Part shown: positions 4,373 through 63,865 of the stretch, piece by piece
Numbering within the stretch: the stretch's first letter is position 1
Layout: each line of letters opens with the position of its first letter
Source of the DNA: Planctomycetota bacterium
GTDB lineage: Bacteria; Planctomycetota; PLA2; JAEUHO01
Length of the DNA: 64,000 nucleotides
Reading direction: 5' to 3'
NCBI GenBank assembly: GCA_965223505.1
Contig: CBDCWP010000010.1
Location: 1-64,000 of the forward strand
Notes under the pieces: generated by a model
Databases searched by the model: none
Told to the model about the DNA's origin: nothing
The model's input: only the letters and a program-made list of their open reading frames with translations
Made by a program: the position numbers and the translations under genes

Positions 4373-5566
4373 ATGTACACGGAGCCGAGTCTCGCGATCG
4401 ACATGGGCGCGTCCTACACCAAGGTCGCTTATCGACCGCGCCTGGATGAAGATGCGCACCAGGCGCCTCGAGTCCCGAGGCGAAGAGCCTTCCAGGTCCC
4501 TACGGAAGTTGCGACGTTCAGGACGCGCCGCAATGAGACCGTGATGTGGGTTCCCAGCGCCGTGGCCCACGACAAGGAGCGGGATCACTGGTCCTTCGGG
4601 GAGGAGGCCGTTGCGCTCGACGGAACTCCCGGCGTGAAGGTCGACATCAACTGGAAGCGGCAGCTCTACCTGGCACCGAAGAGCGAGCGCCTCCGGCGCG
4701 TCTGCGGGAAGTTCTTATCCTGGGTGCTCGACGACGCGGCTCGACGCTGGGAACTGCCCGCTACGGTTCGTGTTCGTGTTGCTGTACCCGCACTTGAACA
4801 CCAAGCCGAGTTCGAGGAGGCGATTCGGAAGTCCGTTGGCTCCTTCCCGGGCATGATCTCATTTGCCACAGAGCCTCGGTGTAACGCGATCGGGTCCTTC
4901 TCGGAGGGGCGCAACGGGATCCACCGCCACGGCGGCTCGCTCTATGTCAGCCGCGGCAGGACCGTAGGTGGCCCCGAGACTGGAGGTTCCAACGGCGAAC
5001 TCTGGAATGCCCTTCGCGACGGAGACGGCCACGTCTACCGCCCGCTGTTGCTCGACCTCGGGGCGTTCACCGTGGATGTTGCGCGGCTTGAGCTCGACAC
5101 CTCGGAAGACGACATGCCCGAGGCCAAGGTCGACTGCCGAAGCCGAGAGGTCGGCCTCGTCAACGAGGTGGACCGGCGCGTCTTCGATCACATCCGGGCG
5201 CGTTGGGGCGGATACGACGCACGCAAGGAGCTCGGCCTGGCGGCGCAGGAACAAGCCAAGTTCCGTCTCTACGCTGGAGGATCCCTCGCGTTCCCTGGCG
5301 GCGTCGCGATGCAGGACGACCAGGACAAGATCGTCCTCTCCGAGATCCTCGACGGGTACGTCAGTAGTGCATGGGAGCTCCTGGCTCCGTACCTGGAGGA
5401 GGGAGATGAGCAGGTGATTGCGACCGGCGGTCCTGTCGGCGCCCCTCTCATTCGCCAACGTCTCGAAGCGAAGGCCGGCGCCGGAGGCGTTCGACTGTAT
5501 GTGCCGAGTGGTGGGCGTTACTGGACTCGAACCAGTGACCCCCAGCTTGTCGAGCTGGTGCTCTAG
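4373..5566 (+). CDS. Hsp70/actin-fold ATPase (nucleotide-binding domain only)
   Basis: Phosphate-1 LAIDMGASYTK, connect-1 EPRCNAIG, phosphate-2 LDLGAFTVDV, adenosine ATGGPVGAP; last 58 nt overlap the tRNA antisense. Confidence 0.7.
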   Translation: MYTEPSLAIDMGASYTKVAYRPRLDEDAHQAPRVPRRRAFQVPTEVATFRTRRNETVMWVPSAVAHDKERDHWSFGEEAVALDGTPGVKVDINWKRQLYLAPKSERLRRVCGKFLSWVLDDAARRWELPATVRVRVAVPALEHQAEFEEAIRKSVGSFPGMISFATEPRCNAIGSFSEGRNGIHRHGGSLYVSRGRTVGGPETGGSNGELWNALRDGDGHVYRPLLLDLGAFTVDVARLELDTSEDDMPEAKVDCRSREVGLVNEVDRRVFDHIRARWGGYDARKELGLAAQEQAKFRLYAGGSLAFPGGVAMQDDQDKIVLSEILDGYVSSAWELLAPYLEEGDEQVIATGGPVGAPLIRQRLEAKAGAGGVRLYVPSGGRYWTRTSDPQLVELVL

Positions 5567-5585
5567 CCAACTGAGCTAAACGCCC
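5509..5585 (-). tRNA. tRNA-Val(GAC)
   Basis: Reverse complement GGGCGTTTAGCTCAGTTGGCTAGAGCACCAGCTCGACAAGCTGGGGGTCACTGGTTCGAGTCCAGTAACGCCCACCA: acceptor stem, D loop, CCAGC/GCTGG anticodon stem with GAC, GTTCGA T loop, encoded CCA. Confidence 0.97.
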
Positions 5586-5826
5586 ACCCAGTGAGCGGGA
5601 GCATATACCGCCACCGCCAATCCGCCCAAATCACGCCCAACCACACCCCGACACGAGGTCCTCCGACCCCATTTCGCCCCATGAGCCCATTTCTCAGGCT
5701 GGACCGCCATTCAATGGGCCTTCCCATCGCGACCTCTCGCCACCCACGGGGTATCAGATCGCGCGCCCGCAGCGTGCAAGTCGTACAATCTCCACGTCTA
5801 GGTCCCCCTCTGCAGAGATTCTCGCC

Positions 5827-6609
5827 ATGACCAACATCGGCCCCATGCTCCTCATCAACGTCGTCCTCGTCGCCGTCGGCATCGGCGTCTACCACGTCGC
5901 CACCGCCGACGACTCCGCCGGATCCGGCGGTGACTTCATCACCGAGAAGACCACCGTCATCCACGACGACGGCAGCGACGGCCCCATGCTCGACGGCGGC
6001 TCCGCCCGCAACGACCGTCGCATCTCCGAGCTCGAAGCCGAGATCGCGTCCCTCAAGGAGCTCCTCGGCAAGCGCCACGCCTCCGGCGGCTCCTACGACG
6101 CCTCCGGCAACGGCGGCGGCTCAGGCGACATCCTGCCCTCCCTCGACCTCGACGTCGGCGGCACCGAGGAAAAGCCGACCTTCGACGAAGACTCGCTGAC
6201 GGCCATGAAGAAGTACATGGACGAGATCCGCCGACGCGACGCCGAAGAGCGCCTCGTCAACGGCCTCGAACGCCAGCTCGGTCGCCTCGACGTCAACCTC
6301 TCCGAGGAACAGAGCGAAGCCGTCATCAAGGCCACCATCGCCGCCCGCGAAAAGCGCATGGCCATGTTCCGCGAGATGGGCCAGCGCGGACGCAACCTCG
6401 ACGAAGCCGGCCGCGAAGCCTTCCGCGAAGAGATGCGCCAGGCCAACGACAAGCTGCGTGAGGAATGGTCCACAACCGTCTACAGCCTCGTGCCCGCCGG
6501 CGACGCCGAGAAGATCGTCGAAGGCATGGGCCGCTCCATCAGCTGGGGCGGTCGCGGCGGCTTCGACACGGGCGGTCGCGCCGGCGGCGGACGCAACCGC
6601 AACCGGTAG
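5827..6609 (+). CDS. Hypothetical membrane-anchored/exported coiled-coil protein
   Basis: N-terminal hydrophobic segment, strong host-like codon bias, G/R-rich tail. Confidence 0.75.
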   Translation: MTNIGPMLLINVVLVAVGIGVYHVATADDSAGSGGDFITEKTTVIHDDGSDGPMLDGGSARNDRRISELEAEIASLKELLGKRHASGGSYDASGNGGGSGDILPSLDLDVGGTEEKPTFDEDSLTAMKKYMDEIRRRDAEERLVNGLERQLGRLDVNLSEEQSEAVIKATIAAREKRMAMFREMGQRGRNLDEAGREAFREEMRQANDKLREEWSTTVYSLVPAGDAEKIVEGMGRSISWGGRGGFDTGGRAGGGRNRNR

Positions 6610-6667
6610 GGCGCGGAGCGAGCACGATTGCCGTCGCGCGTAGCGCGGGCGCGTGGGTCGCGGAATT

Positions 6668-6728
6668 GGGCAGCCACAAGGGCTGCCCCTACGTCGCAGG
6701 ATTGGGCAGCCACTAGGGCTGGCCCTAC
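6668..6728 (-). repeat. Two GTAG-family REP copies
   Basis: GGGCAGCCACAAGGGCTGCCCCTAC at 6668-6692 and a variant at 6704-6728. Confidence 0.9.
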
Positions 6729-6758
6729 ACTCCCCGCGTCATTCTCCGGGGGGTCACC

Positions 6759-7865
6759 ATGCGCATCGGCATTCCGACTGAGATCAAGGCCAACGAACAC
6801 CGCATCGCCGTCGTGCCCGGCGGCGTTCAAGCACTCGTCGCCGACGGCCACGAAGTCCTCGTCCAACGCGGCGGCGGCGTCGGCAGTGGCATCGCCGACG
6901 ACGAGTACGTCGCCGCCGGCGCACGCCTCGTCGACGACGCCGACGACCTCTGGGGCTCCAGCGAGATGATCGTCAAGGTCAAGGAGCCCCTGCCGGAGGA
7001 GTACGGCCGCTGCCGCCAAGACCTGCTCGTCTTCACCTACTTCCACTTCGCCGCCTCGCGCGAGCTAACCGAAGGCATGATCCAGTCCGGCGCCGCGTGC
7101 TTCACCTACGAGACGCTCGAGATCGACGACCAGCTCCCGCTGCTCATTCCCATGTCCGAGGTCGCCGGCCGCTTGTCCATCCAGGAAGGCGCGCACTGCC
7201 TCGAGAAGGCCCAGGGCGGCCGCGGCGTCTTGCTCGGCGGCGTCCCCGGCGTGGAGCCCGCCAACGTGCTCATCCTCGGCGGCGGCACCGCCGGCACCCA
7301 CGCCGCGCTCATGGCCGCGGGCCTCGGCGCCCACGTCGTCATCATGGACATCGATCTCGACCGGTTGCGCGAGCTCGAGGAGTTCATGCCCGCCAACGTC
7401 ACGACGGTCTTCTCCAACCCCGCCAACATCCACCAGCGGGTCCAGTACGCCGACCTCGTCGTCGGCGCCGTGCTGATCGAAGGCGCCAAGGCGCCGATGC
7501 TGATTCCCCGCTCCTACCTCAAGGACATGAAGGACGGCTCCGTCATCGTCGACATCGCCGTCGATCAGGGCGGCTGCGTCGAGACCATCAAGCCCACGAC
7601 GCACGCCGAGCCGACCTACGTCGTCGACGGGGTCGTGCACTACGGCGTCGCCAACATGCCCGGCGCCGTCGCCCGCACCTCCACCTACGCGCTCACCAAC
7701 GCCACCCTGCCGTTCGTGCGCAAGCTGGCCCGCATCGGCGCCGACGAGGCCGTCCGGGACGACGAGCTGCGCACCGCCCTCAACGTCTGGAAGGGCAAGG
7801 TGACCTACCAGGCCGTGGCCGAGGCGTTCGACCTCGAGTACGTCGATCCGCTGACGCTGCTCTAG
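6759..7865 (+). CDS. ald: Alanine dehydrogenase
   Basis: MRIGIPTEIKANEHR, KVKEP, PMSEVAGR, DIAVDQGGC, HYGVANMPGAV motifs. Confidence 0.97.
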   Translation: MRIGIPTEIKANEHRIAVVPGGVQALVADGHEVLVQRGGGVGSGIADDEYVAAGARLVDDADDLWGSSEMIVKVKEPLPEEYGRCRQDLLVFTYFHFAASRELTEGMIQSGAACFTYETLEIDDQLPLLIPMSEVAGRLSIQEGAHCLEKAQGGRGVLLGGVPGVEPANVLILGGGTAGTHAALMAAGLGAHVVIMDIDLDRLRELEEFMPANVTTVFSNPANIHQRVQYADLVVGAVLIEGAKAPMLIPRSYLKDMKDGSVIVDIAVDQGGCVETIKPTTHAEPTYVVDGVVHYGVANMPGAVARTSTYALTNATLPFVRKLARIGADEAVRDDELRTALNVWKGKVTYQAVAEAFDLEYVDPLTLL

Positions 7866-7919
7866 GCGCTCCCGCGCGGGTACCCTCGGCTTCGAAGGAT
7901 TCTCAACGACGGGGGTAGC

Positions 7920-9326
7920 GTGCAGCCCAACGGCAACGGCGACCGGCTACGCGAAGCCCCGCTGTTGCGGGAAACCGTCTCCTTCGGCATGCCGCTCGTC
8001 CTCGCGATGGCGCTGGGCGCGCTCTTCAACCTCGTCGACCTCTGGATCGTCGCCCAGTGGCAGGATCCGGGCATCTCCGTCGCCGCGGTCACCTTCGGCT
8101 CGCTCGTCAACTCGATCCCGCAGATCATCTTCAACGGCATCGTGAACGCCATGATCGCGCTCGTTGCGCGCTTCCATGGCCTCGGCTCCGTGCGCAAGGC
8201 GGGCGTCGCCGCCGGCCAGGGCCTCATGCTCACGCTGGTGCTGAGCGTGCTGTTCGGCGTGCCGCCGTGGTTCTACGCCGAAGAGATCTGCGTCGCGCTG
8301 GGCGCGAAGGGCGACGTCGTCGCGCCCGCCACCGACTACCTGGCCATCATGAGCCTGGGCACCATCACGATGTTCCTGCTGCTCATGGTCACCGGCGTGA
8401 TGCGCGCCGTGGGCAACAGCCTCGTTCCGCTCATCCTTCTGGGCGGCGCGAACCTGCTCAACATCATCCTCGACTACTGGTTCATCTTCGGCGGGCTGGG
8501 GCTGGAGCCGATGGGGGTGGCGGGCGCCGCCTGGGCGACGGTCGTCGCGCGCGGCCTGTTCTCCGTCGCGGGCCTGGCGCTGCTCTACCGCGGCTTCATC
8601 GGCATCAAGATGCGCCGCTTCCTGTGGCGCGCGCGAATCATGTGGCAGCTGCTCGCCATCGGCGTGCCCTCCTGCATGCAGTGGCTGGTGCGCATGGGCT
8701 CGTACCTCTACATCCTGGGCTTCGTCGCCCACGCCGCCCGCGCCACCGGCGTCGGCGAGACGGAAGCGCAGGCGGCCTTCGGCGTGGGCCTGCGGCTGGA
8801 CAGCCTGGTGCTGTTCTCCGGCTTCGGCTGGGGGGCCGCGGCCGCCACGCTCGTTGGCCAGAACCTGGGGCGCGGGCGCCCGGAGCGCGCGGTGCGGGCC
8901 GCCTGGATCGCGCTCGGCCTGAACATGGTGATGATGCTGCTGTTCGCCGCCGCCTACGTGATCTTCGCGGACCCGCTGCTTCACATGATGGGCTTCGACG
9001 TCGGACCCAACACCAACCAGCAGGCCGTGCTCGACATCGGACGCACGTATCTCTACGTCGCGTCGGCAGGGTACGTGTTCCTCGCGGTCGCGATCGCGCT
9101 CAGCCAGGCGCTCGCGGGCGCCGGCGCGACGAAGTTCCCGTTGTTGATCGAGGTCATCGCGTACGGCGCGGTCGGGTATCCGCTCGCCGGTTGGGCGGCG
9201 GAGAACGCGAGCGAGTTCGGACTGCGCGGACTGTGGTTGGTCGCCGTTGCGCTGCACCTCGGGGTCGCGGTAGCGTACGTGCTCTGGTTCCGGTTCGGCC
9301 GCTGGGCGCGAAAGGAGTTGCGTTGA
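7920..9326 (+). CDS. MATE family efflux transporter
   Basis: About 12 TM segments; RAVGNS..PL, NIILD..FIFG, GVAGAAWAT, GQNLGRG motifs. Confidence 0.92.
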   Translation: MQPNGNGDRLREAPLLRETVSFGMPLVLAMALGALFNLVDLWIVAQWQDPGISVAAVTFGSLVNSIPQIIFNGIVNAMIALVARFHGLGSVRKAGVAAGQGLMLTLVLSVLFGVPPWFYAEEICVALGAKGDVVAPATDYLAIMSLGTITMFLLLMVTGVMRAVGNSLVPLILLGGANLLNIILDYWFIFGGLGLEPMGVAGAAWATVVARGLFSVAGLALLYRGFIGIKMRRFLWRARIMWQLLAIGVPSCMQWLVRMGSYLYILGFVAHAARATGVGETEAQAAFGVGLRLDSLVLFSGFGWGAAAATLVGQNLGRGRPERAVRAAWIALGLNMVMMLLFAAAYVIFADPLLHMMGFDVGPNTNQQAVLDIGRTYLYVASAGYVFLAVAIALSQALAGAGATKFPLLIEVIAYGAVGYPLAGWAAENASEFGLRGLWLVAVALHLGVAVAYVLWFRFGRWARKELR

Positions 9327-10351
9327 GGAAAGGCGATCCGAAAGTTCTCAAGCTCGAACGGCAGCTGAACCTCGTCTCGTACCTGCTCTCCGCCAGAGCG
9401 CCCGTGCCGTTTTCCGACATTCGCGGCCGTGTCGTCGGATACGACGACGACGCGAGTCCCGACGCCGTCGAGAAACGCTTCGACCGCGACAAGGCCGACC
9501 TGCGCGCCATCGGCGTCAACATCGAGTACGTATCGAGCGACCTGTTCGGGCGCGCGGGCTACGTGATCGATCCGCGCGGCTACTTCCTGCGCGAGACCGA
9601 CCTCGAGCCCGAGGACGCGATGCTGTTGGCGGTCTTGCAGCGCACGTTGGGCGTCGCGGACGACGAGCTCGGCCGTAACCTCAAGTCGGCGTTGGCGAAG
9701 CTCACGATCGACAGCAGCCTACCCGAGCCGTTGCGTACGTCGGTGGGGGAGCAGCATCTGCTCAGCCTCGGCCAGCCCAACCGCGATCCGGGCCGCAATC
9801 ACCTGTCCACGCTCGGCGAGGCCATCGGGCGGCGCCGCCGTGTGAGCTTCCGCTACCACACGGTGGACGCGAACCGGATGGAGACGCGCGAGGTGCAGCC
9901 GTACGGGCTGGGGCTCGCGAAGGGCCACTGGCACATGGTGGGGTTCGACGAGTCGCGCAAGGCGTTGCGCAACTTCCGGTTGGATCGCATCAAGGGCAAG
10001 CTCAGCGTGATGGACAAGAAGGACGACGCGTTCGAGGTGCCGGACGACTTCGAGATCGACAAGCACATCGAGCAGCAGGAGTTCGACATCCCGGAGGGAC
10101 CGGTCATCAAGGTGACGGTCGAGTTCGACGACGTGGCGACGTGGTTGTTGCAGCGTCAGCGTCGTGGCGAGAGCACGTTGGAGGTGCTCGACGACGGGCG
10201 CGGGCACTTGCAGTTCTCGATTCGGAGTGTCGAGGGGTTGTTCCGCTGGGTGGCGGAGTGGGGGCAGCGTGCGCGCATCGTCAAGCCGAAGCACCTGGCC
10301 GACGAGTTCGTGAACCGCACGACCCGCACGCGGGATCTGTACGCCGTGTAG
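9323..10351 (+). CDS. WYL-domain transcriptional regulator (HTH-WYL-WCX, PafB-like)
   Basis: EKRFDRDKADLRAIG HTH; REVQPYGL..WHMVGFD...LRNFRLDRI WYL core; TTG start after AAAGGAG overlapping the MATE stop. Confidence 0.9.
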   Translation: MRKGDPKVLKLERQLNLVSYLLSARAPVPFSDIRGRVVGYDDDASPDAVEKRFDRDKADLRAIGVNIEYVSSDLFGRAGYVIDPRGYFLRETDLEPEDAMLLAVLQRTLGVADDELGRNLKSALAKLTIDSSLPEPLRTSVGEQHLLSLGQPNRDPGRNHLSTLGEAIGRRRRVSFRYHTVDANRMETREVQPYGLGLAKGHWHMVGFDESRKALRNFRLDRIKGKLSVMDKKDDAFEVPDDFEIDKHIEQQEFDIPEGPVIKVTVEFDDVATWLLQRQRRGESTLEVLDDGRGHLQFSIRSVEGLFRWVAEWGQRARIVKPKHLADEFVNRTTRTRDLYAV

Positions 10352-10420
10352 GGGCGACCCAATTCGTTCGTCCGCAGTTGGTGGTCGCCCAATTTGGGCA
10401 GCCACAAGGGCTGCCCCTAC
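10348..10420. repeat. REP doublet (interrupted GCGACC-type REP plus inverted GCAGCC-type REP)
   Basis: GTAGGGGCGACCC...GTGGTCGCCC followed by GGGCAGCCACAAGGGCTGCCCCTAC between convergent genes. Confidence 0.85.
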
Positions 10421-10423
10421 CAC

Positions 10424-11335
10424 CTACGACAGAATCCGGTCGGCCACCGCGTCCGCCGGCTCGCCGGGTGCGACGTCGATCCAGCGCAACCCGTCGAACG
10501 ACTTGAAGAACGTCATCTGCTTGCGCGCGAACCGGCGCGTACGCCGCGCAATCGCTTCCCGCGCCGCCGACTCCGACATCGTCCCCTCGATCACCGCCGA
10601 AAGCTCCGCCAACCCCAGCACCTTGCGCGCCTCCGGGCTCAGCGCCCGCGCCAACAACGCCCGCGCCTCGTTCAGCACGCCGTCCTCGAACATCAACCGC
10701 GTTCGCAGCTCGATCCGCTCGTTCAGGTCGTCCCAGTCCCGCCGCAACCCGAACACCGTCGCATCGACCCGGTCCGGGCGGTCCCACTGTTCGCGCTGCG
10801 CGCTCGCCCGCTTCCCCGTCGCCCGGATGATCTCCAACGCCCGCACGATCCGCCGCTCGTCGTTCGGATGGACCTGTTCCGCACGCTCCGGATCGAGCGC
10901 CCGCAGCTGCTCGTGAAGCGCCGCCGCGTCCTCGCCGGCGAGCGACGCCCGATAGTCGGCGTCCCGCGCCACGCCCGCGCCCATGCCCTTGAGCCAGCTG
11001 CGCAGATACAGCGCCGTGCCCCCGACGATCCACGGCGTGCCGCCGTCCATCCGGATGCGCTCGACCAGCGCGTCGGCGTCGGCCACGAATCGCGCCGCCG
11101 AATAGGTCTCCGACGGGTCGCACACCCCGACCAGGTGGTGCGGCACGTCGGTCGGCGCCTCCGGTGCGGCCGTCAGAATGCCCATGTGCCGGTACACCGA
11201 GAACGCGTCGCAGCACACCACCTCGCCGTCGGTCTTGCGCGCCAGCGCGATGCCGACGGACGTCTTGCCCGAGGCCGTCGAACCGACCAGGCAGGGCACG
11301 GACGCAGTCGTGGGGCGCGGATCCATGGGGGACAT
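10424..11335 (-). CDS. miaA: tRNA dimethylallyltransferase
   Basis: GSTASGKT P-loop, VPHHLVG, VGGTALY, HPNDERRIVRALE, TRRFARKQMTFF. Confidence 0.95.
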   Translation of the reverse strand: MSPMDPRPTTASVPCLVGSTASGKTSVGIALARKTDGEVVCCDAFSVYRHMGILTAAPEAPTDVPHHLVGVCDPSETYSAARFVADADALVERIRMDGGTPWIVGGTALYLRSWLKGMGAGVARDADYRASLAGEDAAALHEQLRALDPERAEQVHPNDERRIVRALEIIRATGKRASAQREQWDRPDRVDATVFGLRRDWDDLNERIELRTRLMFEDGVLNEARALLARALSPEARKVLGLAELSAVIEGTMSESAAREAIARRTRRFARKQMTFFKSFDGLRWIDVAPGEPADAVADRILS

Positions 11336-11397
11336 GCCGTGGTACCTTCCCGCGCGCGGGTAACCGCAAGAATGCGGGCCGCGCGCGAGGGTCGAGC

Positions 11398-12495
11398 TTG
11401 AGTGAAAAACGGGACCTCTGGGTGCCCGTCGCCCTGGCCCTGGGCGGCGCGGGGATCCTGACCTGGCACATCGTCGACGAGGCCGGGTCCCTGTGGGCCG
11501 GACTCGCCGCGCTCGTGATCGGGTTGGTCGGGGCGATCGTGTGTCTACCGCTGCGCATGCGCCGCGGACAGGCGCGGGTCGTCGCCTTCGGGCTCGGCAC
11601 CGCGATGCTCATGGCCGTCTTCGTGCCCGCCCTCTCACCCAGCGGCATTCACGTCTTCGCCTGGATCGTCGGCGCGCTCGCGTTCCTCCTTCCCATTCGC
11701 ACCGCGTCAGTACAAGTGCGCGCCGTCATGCTGTCCGCCGCGGGCGTGTTCGCGCTCCTCGCCGTCTTGAGCGTGATCGACGTGCTCGACGTGCGTCTGA
11801 CCTGGTTGTTCATCGCCGGCGCGTTCTTCTTCGCCGCCCAGGTGTGGAGTTCGCGCGTCGTGCCGGAGCCGGAGATCCCGCCCGGCCCGCGCATCTGCGT
11901 CTTTGGCGGCACCTTCGATCCGTTCCACATCGCGCACCGCGCGCTCGCGGAGGCCGCGCTGAAGGTCAACGACCGCCTGCTCGTCGTCCCCGCCGGCTCC
12001 GCGCCGCACAAGTTCCTCGGCGACGCCGGCGCCGTACCCGACCGCACGCCGTTTCATCATCGCGTCGCGATGGTGCGCCTGGGCGTCGAGGGCCTCCCGC
12101 GCACCGAGGTGCTCGAGATGGAGGGCAAGCGCGCGGGGCCCTCGTACACCGTCGACACGCTCGAGGCGTTGCGCGGTGCACACGGCCTCGGCACGCGCTG
12201 GCGGCTGCTCGTCGGCGCCGACATGCTGCAGGACTTCCCCAACTGGCGCGAGTGGGAGCGCATCGTCGAGGACACGGCGCTGCTCGTCGCCGCGCGGCCG
12301 GGTCACTCGATCGAAACGCCCGAAGCGTTCGAAGGCCGCGAGATCGAGGTCATCGCGCTCGAGGTCGCCGAGCGCGACGTGTCGTCCACGGACGTGCGAA
12401 CGCGATTGAAGTCTGGCAAGGACGTCGGAGGCGACCTCAGTCCCGCGATCAAGGCCTACATCGAAGAGCACGGCCTCTACGAGCCGAGCGAATAG
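11398..12495 (+). CDS. nadD: Nicotinate-nucleotide adenylyltransferase with N-terminal multi-TM domain
   Basis: FGGTFDPFHIAH, SYTVDTL, LVGADML...W.EW, VSSTDVR; preceded in frame by ~160 hydrophobic aa; TTG start inferred. Confidence 0.85.
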   Translation: MSEKRDLWVPVALALGGAGILTWHIVDEAGSLWAGLAALVIGLVGAIVCLPLRMRRGQARVVAFGLGTAMLMAVFVPALSPSGIHVFAWIVGALAFLLPIRTASVQVRAVMLSAAGVFALLAVLSVIDVLDVRLTWLFIAGAFFFAAQVWSSRVVPEPEIPPGPRICVFGGTFDPFHIAHRALAEAALKVNDRLLVVPAGSAPHKFLGDAGAVPDRTPFHHRVAMVRLGVEGLPRTEVLEMEGKRAGPSYTVDTLEALRGAHGLGTRWRLLVGADMLQDFPNWREWERIVEDTALLVAARPGHSIETPEAFEGREIEVIALEVAERDVSSTDVRTRLKSGKDVGGDLSPAIKAYIEEHGLYEPSE

Positions 12496-51704: not shown

Positions 51705-51916
51705 TCACGCCGACCTGGCGCCCCACGAACGGGCAAGCCCTGGCGCATCTCCATGTTCTGCATTCGAGCGCGCCGCGAGCCACGTCCGCAACAGGCGATC
51801 GATCTCCGTCTCGCTCGCGTGCGGGTGGCCGCGCCGCAGTTGTGCCCGCTTCATCGGCACGACGGCCTCGAACAGGTCGAGCGCTTGTCGAAGTCGAAGG
51901 GCATGCGTGCGGGGCA
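51705..51916 (-). CDS. Small hypothetical protein (possibly antitoxin-like); start uncertain
   Basis: LRQALDLFE...LRRGHPHASETEIDRLLRTWL...EHGDAPG; part of it is duplicated at 56413-56462. Confidence 0.5.
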
Positions 51917-51985
51917 TGCTGTTGGAACCGCACGGGCGGGGGACATGCAGGCGCGACCTCCCTACAATCCCGCCCGGAGGCATGG

Positions 51986-54361
51986 ATGTCGGACATGGAT
52001 CTCAGGCAGGACAGCGCACTGCACCCCGAAGGCGGCGAGCCGAAGTACAGGATCGAAGCACCGATCGGGCAGGGGGGCATGGGCGACGTTTATCTCCTCG
52101 AGGACCGGGACCTCGGCAGGCAGGTGGCCCTGAAGGTCCTGAAAGCCGATCTCGCGGAGGAAGACGCAGCGCGCGCGCACTTCGTGGCGGAAGCCCAAGC
52201 GACGAGCCAGCTCGAGCATCCCGGCGTGCCGCCGGTGCACGACCTCGGTGTGACGGCCGATGGGCGCGTCTACTTCACGATGAAGCTGATCCGCGGCCGG
52301 ACGCTGCGGGAGATCCTGCACGATCTCGTGCTCCGGCGCCGCGAGGTTCAGCGCGAATACAACCTCCACCGACTCGTCAGCATCGTGGCTCGCATCGCGG
52401 AGACGCTCCACTTCGCCCACGAGCGGGGCGTGCTCCACCGTGACATCAAGCCCGAGAACATCATGCTCGGCGACTACGGCGAGATTCACCTGGTCGACTG
52501 GGGCCTGGCTCGCGTCGATCGCCTTCCGGACGGTGAGGACCTGGAGGATGCGGAGCAGGTCGCCACGGCGCGCAGTTCGGAAGGTCTCCAGACCGAGCAC
52601 GGATCACTGAAGGGCACCTTGGCCTACATGAGTCCCGAGCAGGCACGCGGCGCCGTCCATGACCTCGATCCACGTAGCGAGGTCTTTGCTCTGGGCCTTG
52701 TGCTCTACGAGATCCTCACGTTGAAACCCGCCTTCGACCCGACCGATGCGAACCTGCTGGCCGCCGTCGCCGGCGCCGAGGTCCCCGACGTCGCAGAGCG
52801 CAATCCCAAGCGCAAGATTCCCACGGGGCTCGTGTCCGTCGTCCGCCGCGCGCTGCAGCCCGATCCAGCAGATCGGTTCCGAGACGCGAGCGCCATGGGG
52901 GAGCGTCTGCGCGCGTGGCTCGACGGCACGAGCGATCGAGACCGACGCCACGAGGAGGCGGAGCGCCTTGCGCGGGAAGGGCGCGAAGCGATCGGCCACT
53001 TTCAAGGACTGGCCAACGAGGCGCGCGAGGCCGAGGTGCGGGTCGAGGAGGTCAAGGCGGGGCTTGCCCCGCACCAGCCGATCGAGGAGAAGACGGCGTT
53101 GATCGCGGCACGCGCATGCGTGAAGCAGAAGAAGCGCGAAGTGGCGCTTGCGTTCGCCGATGCCACCCACCTGCTCAACGCAGCGCTCGCCCAGGAACAG
53201 GAGAACCCGTCGGCGCGTTCCGCGCTGTCCGACTTGTGGAAGGACCGCCTCGAGGATGCGGAGCGCGAGGGCGATGCGGCCGACGCCGCGCACGCCTTGG
53301 CCATGATCGAGCGTTATGACGACGGCTGTCTGGCGGCGTTCGTCGCCGGGGACGGGAGCCTCAGCCTGACCTCTGAACCTCCGGGTGCCGAGGTGAGCGT
53401 TGGCCGGTTCGAGGAGCAGAAGGGCGTCTTGGCGGTCGGAGAGGAGCGTGGGTTGGGGCCTACGCCGATACGGCGGGTCGGTCTACCCATGGGCTCCTAC
53501 CTCTGCACCCTGAAGCATGAGAGCGGCGAGGTCGTGCGCTATCCCGTTCACATCACCCGCAACCACCACTGGGAGGGCAAGGTCCGACTGCGTACGCGGG
53601 CGGAGATCGGAGACGGGTTCGTCTACGTACCGGGCGGCCCGTACCTCTACGGGGAGGGACGCGACGCGCGTGTCGTCGAGGTGCCCGACTTCGCCATCCA
53701 GCGCTTTCCGGTCACGTTCTGTGAGTACGGCGCGTTTCTCCAGGCCATCGAGGCGGAAGAGGGACGGGAGGCCGCTCGACAACGCGTGCCGCGTATCGGG
53801 TCCTCCGATGGCGAGTACATGGTGCGCGCGGAGGACGGATCGTGGCGCCCGAGGCCGGATCTGATCGAGGGCGATGCCCTGAAAGCGGCTCTCGAGCGGT
53901 TCGGTCCGGGTTTCGAGAAGGACATTCCCGTCCTGGCCGTCTCGTTCCATGACGCCGAGGCCTATTGTGCCTGGAAGACGAATACGACGGGGCTCACGTG
54001 GCGGCTACCGACCGAGCTCGAGCGCGAGAAGGCGGCGCGCGGCGTGGATGGCCGCATGTTTCCGTGGGGCGACATCGAGGATGCGAGCCTCGGCAAGTGC
54101 AGGGAATCCAGGGCCGAGAGCACGCAGCCCGAGCCGGTCGGTGCGTTTCCGCGCTCCGCGTCCGTCTACGGCATGGGCGACGCCGCCGGCGGCGTCTGGG
54201 ACTGGACGACGTCCTGGCTCGACCACCGCGAGGTGCTGCGCGTGTTGCGCGGCGGCTCCTGGGTCAATCCACCAGCGGGCATGCGCTGCGCGGTTCGCAT
54301 CGGCACCCAGCCGTCGAACCGCATCGCGGACTACGGGTTTCGTTGCGCGAGGGACCTCTAG
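51986..54361 (+). CDS. Ser/Thr kinase - helical - PEGA-like - FGE-type C-type-lectin protein (putative DGR target A)
   Basis: IGQGGMGDVY, HRDIKPEN, DWG, GTLAYMSPE; SLTSEPPGAEV PEGA-like; LPTE.EREKAARG, RVLRGGSW...GFRCAR at the C-terminus; no TM. Confidence 0.92.
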   Translation: MSDMDLRQDSALHPEGGEPKYRIEAPIGQGGMGDVYLLEDRDLGRQVALKVLKADLAEEDAARAHFVAEAQATSQLEHPGVPPVHDLGVTADGRVYFTMKLIRGRTLREILHDLVLRRREVQREYNLHRLVSIVARIAETLHFAHERGVLHRDIKPENIMLGDYGEIHLVDWGLARVDRLPDGEDLEDAEQVATARSSEGLQTEHGSLKGTLAYMSPEQARGAVHDLDPRSEVFALGLVLYEILTLKPAFDPTDANLLAAVAGAEVPDVAERNPKRKIPTGLVSVVRRALQPDPADRFRDASAMGERLRAWLDGTSDRDRRHEEAERLAREGREAIGHFQGLANEAREAEVRVEEVKAGLAPHQPIEEKTALIAARACVKQKKREVALAFADATHLLNAALAQEQENPSARSALSDLWKDRLEDAEREGDAADAAHALAMIERYDDGCLAAFVAGDGSLSLTSEPPGAEVSVGRFEEQKGVLAVGEERGLGPTPIRRVGLPMGSYLCTLKHESGEVVRYPVHITRNHHWEGKVRLRTRAEIGDGFVYVPGGPYLYGEGRDARVVEVPDFAIQRFPVTFCEYGAFLQAIEAEEGREAARQRVPRIGSSDGEYMVRAEDGSWRPRPDLIEGDALKAALERFGPGFEKDIPVLAVSFHDAEAYCAWKTNTTGLTWRLPTELEREKAARGVDGRMFPWGDIEDASLGKCRESRAESTQPEPVGAFPRSASVYGMGDAAGGVWDWTTSWLDHREVLRVLRGGSWVNPPAGMRCAVRIGTQPSNRIADYGFRCARDL

Positions 54362-54378
54362 CCCCCTGGCTCCCTGCG
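54234..54378 (+). repeat. DGR-like variable repeat VR-A with shared 3' flank
   Basis: Differs from 59303-59352 only at template adenines; CCCCCTGGCTCCCTGCG after the stop is identical to VR-B. Confidence 0.8.
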
Positions 54379-54444
54379 CTCGGGGTGGCGTGCTCGATGT
54401 AGCGAGATCTGTGTGCGTGCCGGGCGGAGGCGTGCCGGACCTTT

Positions 54445-54532
54445 CGCCCGCTGCCTTGGACTCGTCGCTTTTCTCCGCCAACCCCGCATCGACGGCGTTC
54501 TCGTCGCCGGAGTCCTGCTGCTTCGCGGAGTC
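54445..54532 (-). pseudogene. Degenerate thiC 3'-end relic
   Basis: Encodes DSAKQQDSGDENAVDAGLAEKSDESKAAG, homologous to the ThiC C-terminus and to relic 56515-56642. Confidence 0.7.
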
Positions 54533-54550
54533 TGCCTCGGCCCCAGGTCC

Positions 54551-56359
54551 TCAGAGCAGCTCCAGGATGATCACGGTGGCGACGGCCATGGTGAGGCTCA
54601 TGCCGATTCCCACTCGGGCAAAGTCCTTGGTTCGATAGCCCCCGGGTCCCATGACCATGAGATTGCACTGATGGGCGAACGGGAGCATGAAGGCACAGCT
54701 CGTTCCGAAGGCGACGGCCATGAACGTCTTCGACAGGTCAAGGCCGGACATGCTGGACACCTGCCATGCAACCGGAGCAAGAATGACGGCTGCCGCTCCG
54801 TTGTTGCTGGTGGTGCTGAGCACGGCGCTGACGACGAACAAGGCCGCGAATACGCCGGAGGAACCGAGTGGCGATTTCAGCTGTACCAGGAACGTCGCCA
54901 TCTCACCCGCCACCCCGTGCTGCTCCAACGCCATCCCGAGGGGGACCGTACCGGCGATCAGGAACAGGATCCGGAAGTCCACGGAGCGGCGCGCGGCCTC
55001 CAGGGACACGCAGCCTGTCGCGAGCATCAGGAGGGCGCTTCCGATTGCGCTGAGCGCCAGCGGCAACCAGTTGACGAGTGGCGGGATCAGGGCGACGAGC
55101 AAGAGAGCAATCGCAAGTGGTGCTCTACGGACGTCCTCCGCTTGGGCGGCGTCGGTAAGCACGATGAAGCGCGGATCCTCGGACAGCTTGCGGAGGTCCG
55201 GGGCCGAACCGGAGACGAGGAAGGCATCACCCAGCTGGAGTGGTTCGTCGCCGAGATTGCCTGCGATGACCTGATCGCGGCGCATGATCGCAAGGGCGCT
55301 GAGGCCGAATTCGTTACGGAAGGAAAGGCTGCGAAAGGTCTCTCCGATGGCCTCCGACCGCGGCGGGAGCGTCGCTTCGCCCAACAGCACGCCCTGCTGG
55401 AGAAGGCGAGTCGTCACCGCGGGATCCGCGATCCCGAACTGCACAAGGGCTTCTTCCGCGAATCGCCACGCGTTCTCTTCGGCTCCGGCTACGTACAACT
55501 GATCATCGGGTTCGATACGCAGGTCAGGGTGGGGGTGAATCGACGTGCGCCGCCTGGTGCCTTTGGGTCTACGTACCAGCACGACCCTGAGGGACCAACG
55601 CCCGCCGATATCGGCTTCACGGAGCGATTGGCCGGCGATCTCCGACTCATCGGGAACGCGCATGCGATAGAGATTCTCGGGGAAGTTGTAAGCCTCGGCC
55701 AACTCCTCAGGAACCTGCGCGCGGCCTAGCCGCTCTTCGCTCGACTCTTTCGGTAGCATGCGTCTGCCGATGATGCTCATGTACGCGATGCATATCGCCG
55801 TTACTGGCGCGCCGACTTTCGCGAACATGAACATGTCTACGGGCGTGCCCAGCCGGCCGCGCAGGTCTTCGGCGAGGATGAGGTTCGGTGTCGTTCCGAT
55901 CACGGTGAGGGCGCCGCCGACGATGGCGGCGAAGGCGAGCGGCATCATCAGCCTCGACGCCGGGACCTCCGCGCGGCGTGCGAGCACTGCCACCGCCGGC
56001 AGGAAGACGGCCACCGTCGCCGCATTGGACATGAACGCCGAGAGCACGGCCACCGATGCCATGATCGCAACGATCAGACGCACCTCGCTTCGCCCGCCGA
56101 CGCGTTGCAGTCCGCGGGCCATGAGCGTGGCGACGCCGCTCTCCTTCAGGCCCGCGCCCATGACGAAGATCGCCCCGAGTGCGATGACCGCGGGGTTTCC
56201 GAATCCGACGAGGGCCTGGTCGGGGCTCTCGAGCGTGCCCGTCGCCGCAAGTACGACCGGAATGGCCAGGGCTGTCATCGCGAGGGGGATCGCCTCCGTG
56301 ATGAAGAGGACGACCGCGGCTACGAGCGTGCCAATGGCGATGAGTTCATGAATTCCCAC
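54551..56359 (-). CDS. SLC13/CitMHS-type permease with two TrkA-C (RCK_C) domains
   Basis: SAFMSNAAT, LTVIGTTPNL, FMLPFAHQCNLMVMGPGGYRTKDF; central soluble RCK_C repeats. Confidence 0.92.
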   Translation of the reverse strand: MGIHELIAIGTLVAAVVLFITEAIPLAMTALAIPVVLAATGTLESPDQALVGFGNPAVIALGAIFVMGAGLKESGVATLMARGLQRVGGRSEVRLIVAIMASVAVLSAFMSNAATVAVFLPAVAVLARRAEVPASRLMMPLAFAAIVGGALTVIGTTPNLILAEDLRGRLGTPVDMFMFAKVGAPVTAICIAYMSIIGRRMLPKESSEERLGRAQVPEELAEAYNFPENLYRMRVPDESEIAGQSLREADIGGRWSLRVVLVRRPKGTRRRTSIHPHPDLRIEPDDQLYVAGAEENAWRFAEEALVQFGIADPAVTTRLLQQGVLLGEATLPPRSEAIGETFRSLSFRNEFGLSALAIMRRDQVIAGNLGDEPLQLGDAFLVSGSAPDLRKLSEDPRFIVLTDAAQAEDVRRAPLAIALLLVALIPPLVNWLPLALSAIGSALLMLATGCVSLEAARRSVDFRILFLIAGTVPLGMALEQHGVAGEMATFLVQLKSPLGSSGVFAALFVVSAVLSTTSNNGAAAVILAPVAWQVSSMSGLDLSKTFMAVAFGTSCAFMLPFAHQCNLMVMGPGGYRTKDFARVGIGMSLTMAVATVIILELL

Positions 56360-56514
56360 ATCGGAAGGGTACGCCTGACCCTCCAAGCGCAAGACTGTTG
56401 CGTACCCCCTTGATCGACACGCCGGCCTCGAACAGGTCGCGCGCTTGTCGAAGTCGAAGGGCCGCGGCTTTCTGCTAGAGATCGTAGAGCGACGCGGTTG
56501 GGCGGTGGCCGAAG

Positions 56515-56642
56515 CTACGAGTAGATCTCGCCGCCCGCTGCCTTGAACTCGTCGCTCTTTTCCACCAACCCGCTTCGACGGCTTCCTCGTCGTCGAGGCC
56601 CTGCTGTTTCGCGCAGTCGCGCACCTGCTGCGTGATCTCCAT
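56515..56642 (-). pseudogene. thiC 3'-end relic (with a 1-nt deletion)
   Basis: [25 protein letters not shown] / LVEKSDEFKAAGGEIYS* versus intact [42 protein letters not shown]. Confidence 0.85.
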
Positions 56643-56823
56643 GGCGTGTTCGGGCGGGCAGGTGCGGGTCATCGGCGGTAGACCCTTGGTCCATGCGAGG
56701 CGATGGAGAGGGTGTTTGTCCAGCCGCGAGCGTTTGCCCGAGTTTCCGGGTTGCTACATGGCGTCGCCCCTGGGCGGGCAAACCTCCGCCCGCTCTGCCT
56801 AGAATCCTCGCGGAGGACTCCGC

Positions 56824-59218
56824 ATGAGCCACGTGATCGGACCGCGCAGCATCATCGAGTGGGCCGAGAAGGCGCCCGAGGGCCTCGGCGGGGAGTTCAC
56901 CCCCTCCGAGGAACGTTTCGTCACGGAGGGCACGGTGGGACGCGGCGCGATGGGGGAGGTGTTGCTCGTCAGCGACCAGGACCTCAAGCGCCAGATCGCC
57001 ATGAAGGTGCTCCGTGAAGAATCGGCCGGGACCCGCGAGCATCGGCTGCACTTCCTCGCGGAAGCGCAGGCCACCAGCCAGCTCGAGCACCCCGGAATTC
57101 CCCCGGTCCACGACATCGGCCTGACCCCCGAAGGTCGGCTCTTCTTCACGATGAAGCTGGTCCAAGGACGCACCCTCGAGGAGGTGCTTCACGACCTCGT
57201 GCTCAAGCGCCGCGCGGTCCTGCGCGAGTACGACCTGCACCGGCTGGTGACGGTGCTCGAGCGCATCTGCGAGCCGCTCCACTTCGCCCACGAGAAGGGG
57301 GTCGTGCATCGCGACCTCAAGCCCGCCAACATCATGCTCGGTGACTTCGGCGAGGTGCACGTCATGGACTGGGGGGTCGCCAAGACGCTGGGGGAGAGCG
57401 ACGAAGAAGGAGCGCTCGAGCCCGTCGAGACGATGCGTACGGAAACGGGTCTCGAGACCCGGCACGGAACCGTCAAGGGGACGGTCCCCTACATGAGCCC
57501 CGAGCAGTTTCGGGGGCAGCCGCTCGATCGACGCAGCGACGTCTACGCGCTGGGCTGCCTGCTCTACGAGATGCTCACGCTCCAGATGGCCTTCGACCCG
57601 CACGATCGCGACCTCTTGCAAAAAAAGGTGAGCGGAACCGTCCCCGACGTGCGCACACGCAATCCGCGGCGCAAGGTGCCCGAGCCTCTGGCCGGAATCT
57701 GCGAGCGGGCCATGTCTGCCGACCCGAACGACCGGTACCAGACGGCCGACGCGCTCGCGCACGACCTTCGGGGCTGGCTCGACGGCACCTTGGAGGCGAC
57801 GCGGCGGCACGAGGAGGCCGAGCGCCTCGCGAGCGAGGGGCGGGACGCGGCAGATCGGTTCCGGACGCTGGAACACGAGATGCGCGAGGCCGAGACTACG
57901 CGCGACGAAACGGCCGAGCGGGGCGAAGCGTGGCGGCCGCTGGCGGAGCAGACACCCTGGCTCGAGGCGCGCGCGCGGGTGCGTGCGTTGGAGCGGGACA
58001 CCGCCATCGCCTTCGCCGACGCCACGCACCTGCTGAACGCCGCGCTCGTGCAGGAGGAGGACAACGCGTCGGCGCGCACGGCGCTAGCCGACCTGTGGAA
58101 GCACCGTCTCGACGATGCCGAGGCGCGAGGCGATCCGGCTGACGCTGCTCATGCGATTGCGATGGTCGAGCGTCACGACGACGGCCGGCTCGCGTCCTAC
58201 ATCGCGGGGCGCGGCAGCCTGACGCTCGGGTCGGAGCCTGTTGGCGCCGAGGTCTTCCTCTCGCGCTACGAAGACCGCGACGGCGTCCTCGTCGCCGAAG
58301 GAGAACGATCGATCGGCGTCGCGCCGATCGCTGGACACGCGCTCCCCATGGGCTCGTACCTGTGCGTCCTCAGGCACGAGGGGCTGCCGGACATTCGCTA
58401 CCCCGTGCAACATCGCGCGCAATCGGGAGTGGGAGGGAACGGTGCGCATGCCCGAGGCCGAGGAGGTCGGCGAGGGCTTCGTCCACGTTCCCGCCGGTCC
58501 CTTCATCTACGGGGAGGGCAAGACGAGGACGGAGATCGACCTGCCGGACTTCGCGATCCATCGGTTCCCGGTGACGTTCGGCGACTACCTCGAGTTCGTG
58601 GCCCACGTCGAGGCCGAAGAGGGACTCGAGGCCGCCACGGCGCGCGCGCCGCAGACGCCGGGAGACGGCCTGTACGTCGAGCGCACCGAGGCCCGGGTGT
58701 GGCGCACGCTGCCGGTGATCGTCGAGGGCGAGGCGTACGAGGCGTCGCTCGAGCGATTCGGGGAGGGGTTCCTCGAACGGATCCCCGTGATGGGGGTGTC
58801 GTTCGAAGATGCCGAGGCCTACTGCGCGTGGAAGACGAAGACCAGCGGCTGTACGTGGCGCTTGCCGAGCGAAGAGGAGCGCGAGAAGGCCGCGCGCGGC
58901 GTGGACGGGCGCACCTTCCCCTGGGGCGAGACCGAGCACGCGAGTCTCGGGAAGTGCCGAGAGTCGCGGCCGGAGAGAACGCAGCCCGAGCCCGTCGGCG
59001 CCTTCCCCACGGCAGCGTCGGTCTACGGCATGGGCGATGCCGCTGGCGGCATGTCGGACTGGACGACGTCGTGGCTCGATCACCGCGAGGTGCTGCGCGT
59101 GTTGCGCGGCGGCTCCTGGAACGCTCCACCGGCGAACTTGCGCTGCGCGTCTCGAAGCGGCGTCCAGCCATCGGTCCGCAGCTCGAACATCGGGTTTCGT
59201 TGCGCGAGGGACCTGTAG
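56824..59218 (+). CDS. Ser/Thr kinase - helical - PEGA-like - FGE-type CLec protein (putative DGR target B); +1 frameshift at ~58409
   Basis: Paralogue of 51986-54361; GTG CAA CAT CGC versus paralogue GTT CAC ATC indicates one extra A; the two frames join into a full-length protein. Confidence 0.85.
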
Positions 59219-59235
59219 CCCCCTGGCTCCCTGCG
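59091..59235 (+). repeat. DGR-like variable repeat VR-B with shared 3' flank
   Basis: 4 mismatches to 59303-59352, all at template adenines. Confidence 0.8.
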
Positions 59236-59302
59236 GCCTGTCCGGGGCCCCTGCGAGCACAGGCCCGCCCAAGGGTCGAGATACGGCACCGAAAGCGTTG
59301 GT

Positions 59303-59352
59303 TGCTGCGCGTGTTGCGCGGCGGCTCCTGGAACAATCCACCAGCGAACATG
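59303..59352 (+). repeat. Truncated DGR template repeat (TR) candidate
   Basis: Intergenic TGCTGCGCGTGTTGCGCGGCGGCTCCTGG AAC AAT CCA CCA GCG AAC ATG; adenine-rich version of both VRs. Confidence 0.75.
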
Positions 59353-59465
59353 TCCGTACACCACTCGGGTGGTGCCGCCTGCAGCCACCATCGACGATCG
59401 GTGTCGAGGGAGACACGGAACCGCGAGCCCACGGTACCGCCCGTGTGCGCTGCTATGCTCTCGGG

Positions 59466-61856: not shown

Positions 61857-61910
61857 GCACGGCAAGGCAAGGCCGGTCCGGCTGCGAAGTGGCGCTGGCG
61901 CGGAGACGGG

Positions 61911-63865
<1,955 letters not shown>

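What the first reader, a model, noticed from the sequence alone, without database searches (positions are those of the whole stretch)
54234..59352. DGR hypermutation signature: two kinase-lectin genes differ from an intergenic template only at adenines
Seen: the 50-bp intergenic repeat 59303-59352 (...TGG AAC AAT CCA CCA GCG AAC ATG) aligns to the 3' ends of both kinase-FGE genes: VR-A 54234-54283 (TGG GTC AAT CCA CCA GCG GGC ATG) and VR-B 59091-59140 (TGG AAC GCT CCA CCG GCG AAC TTG). Each has 4 mismatches, all 8 at the template's 9 adenines and none at its 41 non-A positions. Beyond the template fragment the VR-A/VR-B codons differ as GTT/TCT, CGC/CGA, ATC/AGC, ACC/GTC, CCG/CCA, AAC/GTC, ATC/AGC, GCG/TCG, GAC/AAC and TAC/ATC, mostly at codon positions 1-2 with the third C kept, as expected from AAC/AAT template codons. 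They then share GGGTTTCGTTGCGCGAGGGACCT and 17 identical nt after the stop (IMH-like). Established: adenine-specific TR-to-VR mutagenesis in the RGGSW...GFR segment of an FGE-type C-type-lectin fold is the DGR hallmark. Inference: these are DGR-diversified binding heads on signalling kinases, sharing one template.
Basis: partly seen in the sequence, partly recalled or inferred. Interest (0 to 1): 0.93.

Follow-up and report, generated by a model that had tools for sequence, protein, structure and literature searches.

The report
Orphaned DGR targets with truncated template
Two kinase genes in this window carry the genuine mark of a targeted-hypermutation retroelement, but their local template is cut down to 50 bases and one gene is frameshifted, so the locus looks like a switched-off copy of a known system.

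Summary
The three 50-nt copies exist as described. Each variable repeat (VR) differs from the intergenic copy at 4 of its 9 adenines and at 0 of 41 other bases (P about 3e-7 for both).

The carriers are two paralogous, apparently cytoplasmic Ser/Thr-kinase + FGE-sulfatase (C-type-lectin fold) genes.

The intergenic "template" is only the first 50 nt of a template repeat (TR). It breaks off at 59352/59353.

The one reverse transcriptase, Avd and full-length TR in the 92%-complete assembly lie on another contig, C43. That cassette has its own two kinase-FGE targets, which match its TR at 92 of 92 non-A positions.

The window's VRs differ from the C43 TR at 7 and 9 non-A positions. All five of these that fall inside the remnant are shared with it. 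So a local TR wrote them, and that TR is now truncated.

The VR-B gene also carries a 1-nt insertion.

Best reading: a disabled duplicate diversity-generating retroelement (DGR) cassette, with VR-A frozen and VR-B decaying. Kinase-lectin DGR targets and incomplete DGR loci are both in print, so this is a new member of a known kind.

The parts
51842..54361 (+). VR-A gene: Ser/Thr kinase + FGE-sulfatase (C-type-lectin fold), intact ORF. The longest ORF starts at 51842. The database's called product is 791 aa, which implies a start near 51986.
   Evidence: Pkinase 1.7e-34, FGE-sulfatase 1.6e-37 running to the last residues. (P0001, 791 aa). (VAxK, HRDxKPxN, DWG and SPE motifs; no 19-residue stretch with mean hydropathy above 1.38).
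54234..54358 (+). VR-A, the variable repeat at the 3' end of the gene. Changed sites lie between 54263 and 54332.
   Evidence: 4 of 9 A and 0 of 41 non-A changed against the local remnant; 13 of 26 A and 7 of 92 non-A changed against the C43 TR.
54335..54378 (+). IMH-like 3' block (GGGTTTCG...GGGACCT), stop codon and 17 nt of conserved flank. Shared with VR-B apart from the last sense codon (CTC in VR-A, CTG in VR-B).
   Evidence: Folding as DNA is no better than shuffles.
56824..58410 (+). VR-B gene, N-terminal (kinase) part, in frame 1.
   Evidence: ORF. (Pkinase 4.9e-41). (tblastn: frame 1 up to about 58407-58410).
58401..58419 (+). Site of the 1-nt insertion, an extra A in ...GTGCAACATC.... 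It shifts the VR-B gene from frame 1 to frame 2.
   Evidence: alignment with the three paralogues. (the three frames). Unitigs with 0 differences over the site in 3 runs (X1 record 5, X2 record 14, X4 record 27).
58403..59218 (+). VR-B gene, C-terminal (FGE-sulfatase) part, in frame 2, ending at TAG 59216-59218.
   Evidence: FGE-sulfatase 1.2e-38..
59091..59215 (+). VR-B, a variable repeat.
   Evidence: 4 of 9 A and 0 of 41 non-A changed against the local remnant; 14 of 26 A and 9 of 92 non-A changed against the C43 TR.
59219..59302 (+). 84-nt spacer between the VR-B stop codon and the TR remnant. The same position and length (85 nt), with partial similarity, are seen between VR1 and the full TR on C43.
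   Evidence: alignment of the spacers.
59303..59352 (+). Template-repeat remnant: the first 50 nt of a TR, with unmutated AAC/AAT codons.
   Evidence: It keeps all 8 A's that the C43 TR has in this stretch. It shares with VR-A and VR-B the 5 non-A differences from the C43 TR that fall within it.
59353..59465 (+). Unrelated unique sequence after the truncation junction, running up to the start of a SASA-esterase lipoprotein gene at 59466.
   Evidence: no TR, RT, Avd or repeat homology. (SASA 1.7e-40). The junction is bridged by unitigs with 0 differences in two samples (X1 record 4, X4 record 30).

Best explanation
The window holds the remains of a second DGR cassette. Two paralogous, probably cytoplasmic Hanks-type Ser/Thr kinases end in an FGE-type C-type-lectin fold. 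The last ~100 nt of each gene (VR-A, VR-B) were rewritten by mutagenic retrohoming: an RT copies the TR RNA, inserts random bases opposite template adenines, and the cDNA replaces the VR. The template was a local TR lying 84 nt downstream of the VR-B gene, the same layout as the intact cassette on contig C43 (kinase-FGE, then TR, then Avd and RT converging on the opposite strand). A rearrangement removed everything after TR position 50: the rest of the TR with its IMH* end and, by inference, a local Avd and RT. The VR-B gene then or earlier gained a 1-nt insertion and is a pseudogene. VR-A is an intact gene whose binding-site sequence is now fixed. The surviving cassette on C43 has not overwritten the window's VRs. 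Shown: the A-specific pattern, the truncation, the frameshift, the single RT/Avd/full TR in the assembly, and the mismatch to the C43 TR. Inferred: the former local RT/Avd, the order of events, and present inactivity.
For: A-specificity against the remnant is 4 of 9 A and 0 of 41 non-A in each VR. The C43 cassette has RVT_1 at 5.8e-15, bAvd at 2.7e-20 and NCBIfam DivGenRetAVD at 88.3 bits against a cut-off of 80. Its VR1 has 15 of 26 A and 0 of 92 non-A changed; its VR2 has 13 of 26 and 0 of 92. The window's VRs against the C43 TR give 13 of 26 A and 7 of 92 non-A (VR-A) and 14 of 26 A and 9 of 92 non-A (VR-B). Seven of these non-A differences are common to both VRs. All five that lie in the first 50 nt are also in the remnant. 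The remnant keeps 8 of 8 A's of the C43 TR, whereas the four VRs changed 3 to 5 of those 8, so it derives from a TR and not from a VR. The spacing is the same as on C43: 84 against 85 nt after the target's stop codon. Only six TR/VR-like copies exist in the genome. There is only one RT and one Avd. The frameshift is shown. Unitigs from 2 samples bridge the junction and the frameshift with 0 differences. Relatives carry the same convergent layout, with 17 of 27 A and 0 of 91 non-A changed in G011:C726. G011 has at least four RT paralogues, so genomes with several cassettes occur in this family. The region is rearranged: thiC 3' fragments flank the neighbouring transporter gene.
Against: The assembly is 92.5% complete in 44 contigs. 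DGR contigs in relatives are short (2.3-9.8 kb in G011), so a contig with a full local-type TR and RT could have escaped binning. The runs available are kept only as low-depth (2-10x) contigs, which drop rare variants, so inactivity is not shown. The 41 non-A bases are still identical in all three copies, so the truncation is either recent or not the end of activity. VR-B's three private changes (CGA, CCA, CTG) are all synonymous, which does not look like free decay. Two of them could instead be TR-A sites. Whether the lost part included an RT and Avd cannot be seen.
Confidence: 0.72

Rival explanations
1. The locus is still diversified. A full-length local-type TR, with or without its own RT/Avd, exists in the unassembled part of the genome or in a structural variant carried by part of the population. 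The truncated form is then only the assembled haplotype.
For: Completeness is 92.5%. TR/VR repeats break assemblies: unitigs end at the shared 29-mer, and the DGR contigs of G011 are short. The non-A bases of both VRs and the remnant are identical. Passages read in PMC10907252 report disrupted DGR loci in Thiohalocapsa with intact structural variants in the population.
Against: No such TR was found in 5.15 Mb. There is no second RT or Avd at tblastn E<1 or with PF00078. Unitigs run through the truncation junction without a branch in two samples. No exact match to the TR core exists in the genome or metagenome collections. The VR-B gene is frameshifted.
Confidence: 0.18
2. The window's VRs are remote targets serviced in trans by the C43 cassette (its TR, RT and Avd), and the 50-nt copy is irrelevant.
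For: Remote targets and trans action are established for DGRs (passages read in PMC5758913, and PMC10907252). The 17-nt GGGTTTCGTTGCGCGAG block is identical between the C43 TR and the window's VRs, and the following IMH-like bases differ from C43's VRs at one position.
Against: VR-A differs from the C43 TR at 7 of 92 non-A positions and VR-B at 9 of 92, against 0 of 92 for C43's own VRs. The shared differences match the local remnant wherever it exists. Homing from the C43 TR would have erased the internal ones.
Confidence: 0.05
3. There is no retroelement involvement: ordinary divergence of paralogues plus a chance or gene-conversion fragment.
For: None beyond the fact that FGE-domain C-termini are conserved in many kinase-FGE genes that have no DGR nearby.
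Against: All 8 differences fall on 9 A's of 50 positions (P about 3e-7). The same pattern appears with a full TR, RT and Avd in the paralogous cassette.
Confidence: 0.01

Closest known systems
Cyanobacterial DGR variable proteins with an N-terminal Ser/Thr kinase and a C-terminal C-type-lectin domain, including 'remote' variable proteins (Vallota-Eastman et al. 2020, PMC7517822; passages read)
   Same: The domain logic is the same: a Hanks-type kinase joined to a C-terminal CLec/FGE fold with the VR at the 3' end. Paralogues occur both inside and away from the DGR cassette. The proposed role is tuning of ligand or substrate recognition in signalling.
   Different: The phylum differs: the nearest RT record is titled Planctomycetia, and the kinase-FGE homologues are named Planctomycetota. 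Here the away-from-cassette VRs do not match the genome's only full TR at non-A sites, and they sit beside a stump of their own TR.
Incomplete or disrupted DGR loci of Thiohalocapsa PB-PSB1, DGR 1, 3 and 7 (Dore et al. 2024, PMC10907252; passages read)
   Same: The genome has several related DGR loci, some lacking an RT or TR. There are VRs with no perfect TR match elsewhere in the genome. The same question arises: past activity or activity in variant cells.
   Different: In that work diversification was measured in reads, and intact structural variants were found with long reads. Neither could be done here. The cause named there was transposons; no IS or repeat was found at this junction.
Bordetella phage BPP-1 DGR (mtd-avd-TR-brt), the mechanistic prototype (introduction of PMC5758913; otherwise recalled)
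   Same: A-to-N TR/VR pattern. VR at the 3' end of a C-type-lectin-fold gene. IMH-like conserved 3' block. Avd plus RT.
   Different: This is a cellular and not a phage system. On C43 the RT and Avd lie on the opposite strand and converge on the TR; PMC5758913 notes that such an arrangement occurs. A downstream hairpin was not supported here.

Membership tests
Diversity-generating retroelement (DGR) target / variable repeat | A TR/VR pair whose differences are confined to template adenines | tested here: met
   4 of 9 A and 0 of 41 non-A changed in each VR against the 50-nt remnant. For the remaining ~70 nt only the paralogous C43 TR is available: 13-14 of 26 A against 7-9 of 92 non-A changed.
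Diversity-generating retroelement (DGR) target / variable repeat | VR at the 3' end of a gene, within a C-type-lectin / FGE-sulfatase fold | tested here: met
   the PF03781 match reaches profile position 255 of 255 at the last residues of both genes.
Complete, functional DGR cassette at this locus | Full-length cognate TR with its 3' IMH* end | tested here: not met
   homology ends after 50 nt at 59352. No other local-type TR was found in 5.15 Mb; 0 exact matches in the two public collections.
Complete, functional DGR cassette at this locus | DGR-type reverse transcriptase and Avd accessory protein | tested here: not met
   None in the window. The genome's only RT and Avd are on C43 (one PF00078 match, NF033474 at 88.3 bits against a cut-off of 80). 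The IGxxxSQ motif seen in the RT is a DGR hallmark that I recall from memory, not from a call.
Complete, functional DGR cassette at this locus | Intact target reading frames | tested here: inconclusive
   VR-A is intact. The VR-B gene has a 1-nt insertion near 58409, supported by unitigs in 3 runs.
Complete, functional DGR cassette at this locus | IMH and a GC-rich inverted repeat downstream of the VR | tested here: inconclusive
   A conserved IMH-like block and 17 conserved nt after the stop codon are present. Predicted DNA hairpins are no better than shuffles, with z from -1.33 to +0.38.
Complete, functional DGR cassette at this locus | Population variation concentrated at TR-A positions | not testable with these tools
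   Only Logan contigs at depth 2-10 of 4 runs from 2 samples of 1 study were available. Contigs drop rare variants. The VR-A protein is a singleton cluster.
Hanks-type Ser/Thr protein kinase | Pkinase domain with the catalytic motifs (VAxK, HRDxKxxN, DFG-like, APE-like) | tested here: met
   (PF00069 at 1.7e-34 and 4.9e-41). (VALK, HRDIKPEN, DWG and SPE in VR-A). The motif names are recalled.

The most novel reading that the evidence does not exclude
Loss of the template is the way a DGR-evolved specificity gets locked in. After diversification produced a useful VR-A binding head, truncation of the local TR froze it. Meanwhile the nearly identical IMH region is not used by the paralogous C43 cassette. 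That would mean sister DGR cassettes in one cell are insulated from each other by something other than the 3' homing block, for example cassette-specific RNA elements downstream of the TR or matching to the TR 5' end.
Probability: 0.2. Interest if true: 0.55.

Novelty: new member of a known kind. Interest (0 to 1): 0.38.

Why it matters
The locus shows a DGR caught in decay: a template stump, one frozen target and one broken target, in a genome that still has a working-looking sister cassette. That gives a natural test of whether sister cassettes cross-target each other's genes. Here they apparently have not. It also adds Planctomycetota to the lineages in which cytoplasmic Ser/Thr kinases carry DGR-diversified lectin-fold heads. 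It does not reveal a new mechanism.

Tried and rejected
- **Exact-pattern scans.** Scans for the TR core in genome contigs and metagenome contigs gave 0 matches each, so no conspecific intact copy could be fetched.
- **Reads.** Four runs (2 samples, 1 study) are held only as contigs at depth 2-10. VR-A, VR-B, the junction and the frameshift site are each covered by unitigs with 0 differences, and no VR variant was listed. 13 rows of differences were not shown. This does not show inactivity.
- **Protein clusters as a proxy for population variants.** The VR-A product is a singleton and the next relative is 64% identical.
- **Hairpin or cruciform downstream of the VRs.** Not distinguishable from shuffled sequence.
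- **A mobile element at the truncation.** The 118 nt after the junction have no repeat in the genome apart from one weak 56-nt hit. There is no RT or Avd remnant by tblastn.
- **Trans-service by the C43 TR.** Rejected on non-A mismatches.
- **Trees of the kinase and FGE parts.** These pair VR-B with VR1 or G011:C726 and pair VR-A with VR2, but with support of only 85-89/90-96 and other forks weak. I treat this as a hint of whole-cassette duplication.
- **Earlier notes of this scan.** Nothing on this genome's DGR. One decayed DGR in another genome.
Full report
**Observation.** The three 50-nt copies are at 54234-54283 (VR-A), 59091-59140 (VR-B) and 59303-59352 (intergenic) (family D3). Against the intergenic copy each VR has 4 changes. 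All 8 lie on its 9 adenines and none on its 41 other bases. If changes fell at random the probability would be 5.5e-4 per VR and 3e-7 for both. In addition, the last sense codon differs (CTC in VR-A, CTG in VR-B).

**The genes.** VR-A ends an intact ORF (51842..54361; called product 791 aa). It matches Pkinase at 1.7e-34 and FGE-sulfatase at 1.6e-37, the latter running to the last residues. Its kinase motifs are present, and no 19-residue stretch reaches a mean hydropathy above 1.38, so it is probably cytoplasmic.

VR-B ends an FGE-sulfatase frame (to 59218, 1.2e-38), but the kinase part (from 56824, Pkinase 4.9e-41) is in another frame. tblastn with the three paralogues switches from frame 1 to frame 2 at about 58403-58410. 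The nucleotide alignment shows one extra A in ...GTGCAACATC..., where the other three genes have one base fewer.

Between the two genes lies a CitMHS/TrkA-C transporter on the minus strand, not an RT.

**The rest of the genome.** BLAST of the three copies against the 5.15-Mb, 44-contig assembly finds only six related stretches: the three in the window and three on contig C43. On C43 a kinase-FGE gene (VR1) is followed after 85 nt by a full-length, AAC-rich TR. Then, on the opposite strand and converging on the TR, come an Avd and an RT, followed by a second kinase-FGE gene (VR2).
- The Avd matches bAvd at 2.7e-20 and NCBIfam DivGenRetAVD at 88.3 bits against a cut-off of 80.
- The RT matches RVT_1 at 5.8e-15.
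- VR1 differs from this TR at 15 of 26 A's and 0 of 92 other positions. VR2 differs at 13 of 26 and 0 of 92.

It is the only RT (one PF00078 match; tblastn E<1) and the only Avd in an assembly rated 92.5% complete.

**Which template wrote the window's VRs.** Against the C43 TR, VR-A has 13 of 26 A's and 7 of 92 non-A's changed. VR-B has 14 of 26 and 9 of 92. Seven non-A differences are common to both VRs. The five that fall within the first 50 nt are all present in the intergenic remnant too. So both VRs were last rewritten from a local TR type, about 90% identical to the C43 TR over the part that survives, and not from the C43 TR.

The remnant itself derives from a TR and not from a decayed third VR. 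It keeps all 8 adenines that the C43 TR has in that stretch, whereas the four VRs changed 3 to 5 of those 8. It also sits 84 nt after the VR-B stop codon, matching the 85 nt on C43, with partly alignable spacers.

**The truncation.** After 59352 the sequence is unrelated to any TR, VR, RT or Avd, and it is not repeated in the genome. A lipoprotein-type SASA esterase gene starts 113 nt later.

In public runs kept as contigs (4 runs, 2 samples, 1 study, depth 2-10), unitigs with 0 differences run from the shared 29-mer through the junction to 59700 in both samples (X1 record 4, X4 record 30). Others cover VR-B plus the spacer (X1 record 6, X4 record 29), VR-A (X1 record 3, X3 record 15) and the frameshift site (X1 record 5, X2 record 14, X4 record 27). 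These runs may be the source of the assembly, so they are not independent. They do argue against a binning or scaffolding artefact.

No VR variants were listed, but contigs drop rare variants, so present inactivity is inferred and not shown.

**Signs of rearrangement.** Two fragments of the 3' end of thiC (54445-54532 and 56514-56642) flank the transporter gene. The true thiC is at 61911..63779 on the minus strand. The neighbourhood has therefore been reshuffled, which fits loss of the TR 3' part by rearrangement.

**Relatives.**
- Close homologues of the RT occur in G011 (75, 61, 59 and 42% identity, four contigs) and G030 (60%) among 41 genomes searched. 11 of 41 have any match at E<=1e-10, and some of these are other RT types.
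- In G011:C726, G011:C1 and G030:C265 the RT and Avd converge on the TR as on C43. The kinase-FGE gene sits directly upstream of the TR in the two G011 loci, and next to the RT on its far side in G030, which is the position VR2 holds on C43.
- In G011:C726 the TR/VR pair shows 17 of 27 A's and 0 of 91 non-A's changed. In G030 the figures are 17 of 30 and 7 of 76.
- Genomes with several cassettes, each with its own RT, thus exist in this family. This is why I infer that the window's cassette once had its own RT and Avd.
- Trees hint that VR-B pairs with VR1 or G011:C726 and VR-A with VR2, with support of 85-89/90-96 and other forks weak.
- Kinase-FGE orthologues at E<=1e-150 are in 15 of 41 genomes. 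Four that I inspected have no TR copy, RT or Avd within about 6 kb. The protein family therefore also lives without a DGR.
- More than 800 homologues at E<=1e-50 are in the protein database. The source names that are given are mostly Planctomycetota. The nearest RT record is titled Planctomycetia.

**How it works.**
- *Established from the DGR literature* (introduction of PMC5758913): TR RNA is reverse-transcribed with random incorporation opposite A, and the cDNA replaces the VR, guided by the IMH at the VR 3' end.
- *Shown here:* the products of that process in VR-A and VR-B, and a template stump that lacks about 70 nt of TR and its 3' end.
- *Inferred:* without the TR 3' end no cDNA covering the VR can be primed and homed. 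VR-A is therefore a frozen variant of a ligand-binding head on a signalling kinase, and VR-B is a pseudogene.

**What is known already.** Kinase + CLec DGR targets and remote paralogues are described in cyanobacteria (PMC7517822, passages). A kinase-domain target class, remote targets, and TR and RT on different strands are described in PMC5758913 (passages). Incomplete DGR loci, trans action, and VRs with no matching TR in the genome are described in Thiohalocapsa (PMC10907252, passages). The bioRxiv version of the global survey (10.1101/2020.04.01.020958) mentions only a CotH-like kinase target in the passages I saw. I saw no supplements of any of these papers, so a planctomycete kinase-FGE DGR may already be listed there. 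My single literature search returned no title on Planctomycetota DGRs, which is weak evidence of absence.

**Verdict.** This is a real DGR signature in a known kind of target, at a disabled duplicate cassette. The points of interest are the clean evidence that the surviving sister cassette has not overwritten these VRs, and the snapshot of decay.

Noticed in passing
L001 (G000:C43:14000-32000): 5303-7708(+), 7794-7919(+), about 8061-8480(-), 8351-9610(-), 9595-12003(+): A complete DGR on another contig: kinase-FGE target VR1, a full AAC-rich TR, Avd and RT on the opposite strand converging on the TR, and a second kinase-FGE target VR2. Both VRs match the TR at all 92 non-A positions.
   Followed up: yes
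window 54445-54532, 56514-56642, 61910-62039: Two fragments of the 3' end of thiC, encoding the last ~40 residues and 78-84% identical, flank the CitMHS transporter gene in direct orientation. The intact thiC is at 61911-63779(-). This points to past segmental rearrangement around the DGR remnant.
   Followed up: partly
G014:C3, G020:C8, G010:C217, G029:C69 (L096-L099): Kinase-FGE orthologues (55-63% identical) in related genomes have no TR-like copy, RT or Avd within about 6 kb. The protein family therefore exists with and without a DGR.
   Followed up: partly
window 57256-57703: Summed contig depth rises to hundreds or thousands in all four runs, with many loose ends. This is the conserved catalytic core of the kinase domain, picking up contigs of other organisms. 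It is not a copy-number signal.
   Followed up: no
G000 contigs C13, C29, C32: G+C is 0.61-0.65, against 0.67-0.70 for the other 41 contigs. These may be islands or mis-binned contigs.
   Followed up: no
window 52497-52505 region (VR-A protein residue 182) and paralogues: All three intact paralogues have DWG in place of the usual DFG magnesium-binding motif of the kinase domain.
   Followed up: no
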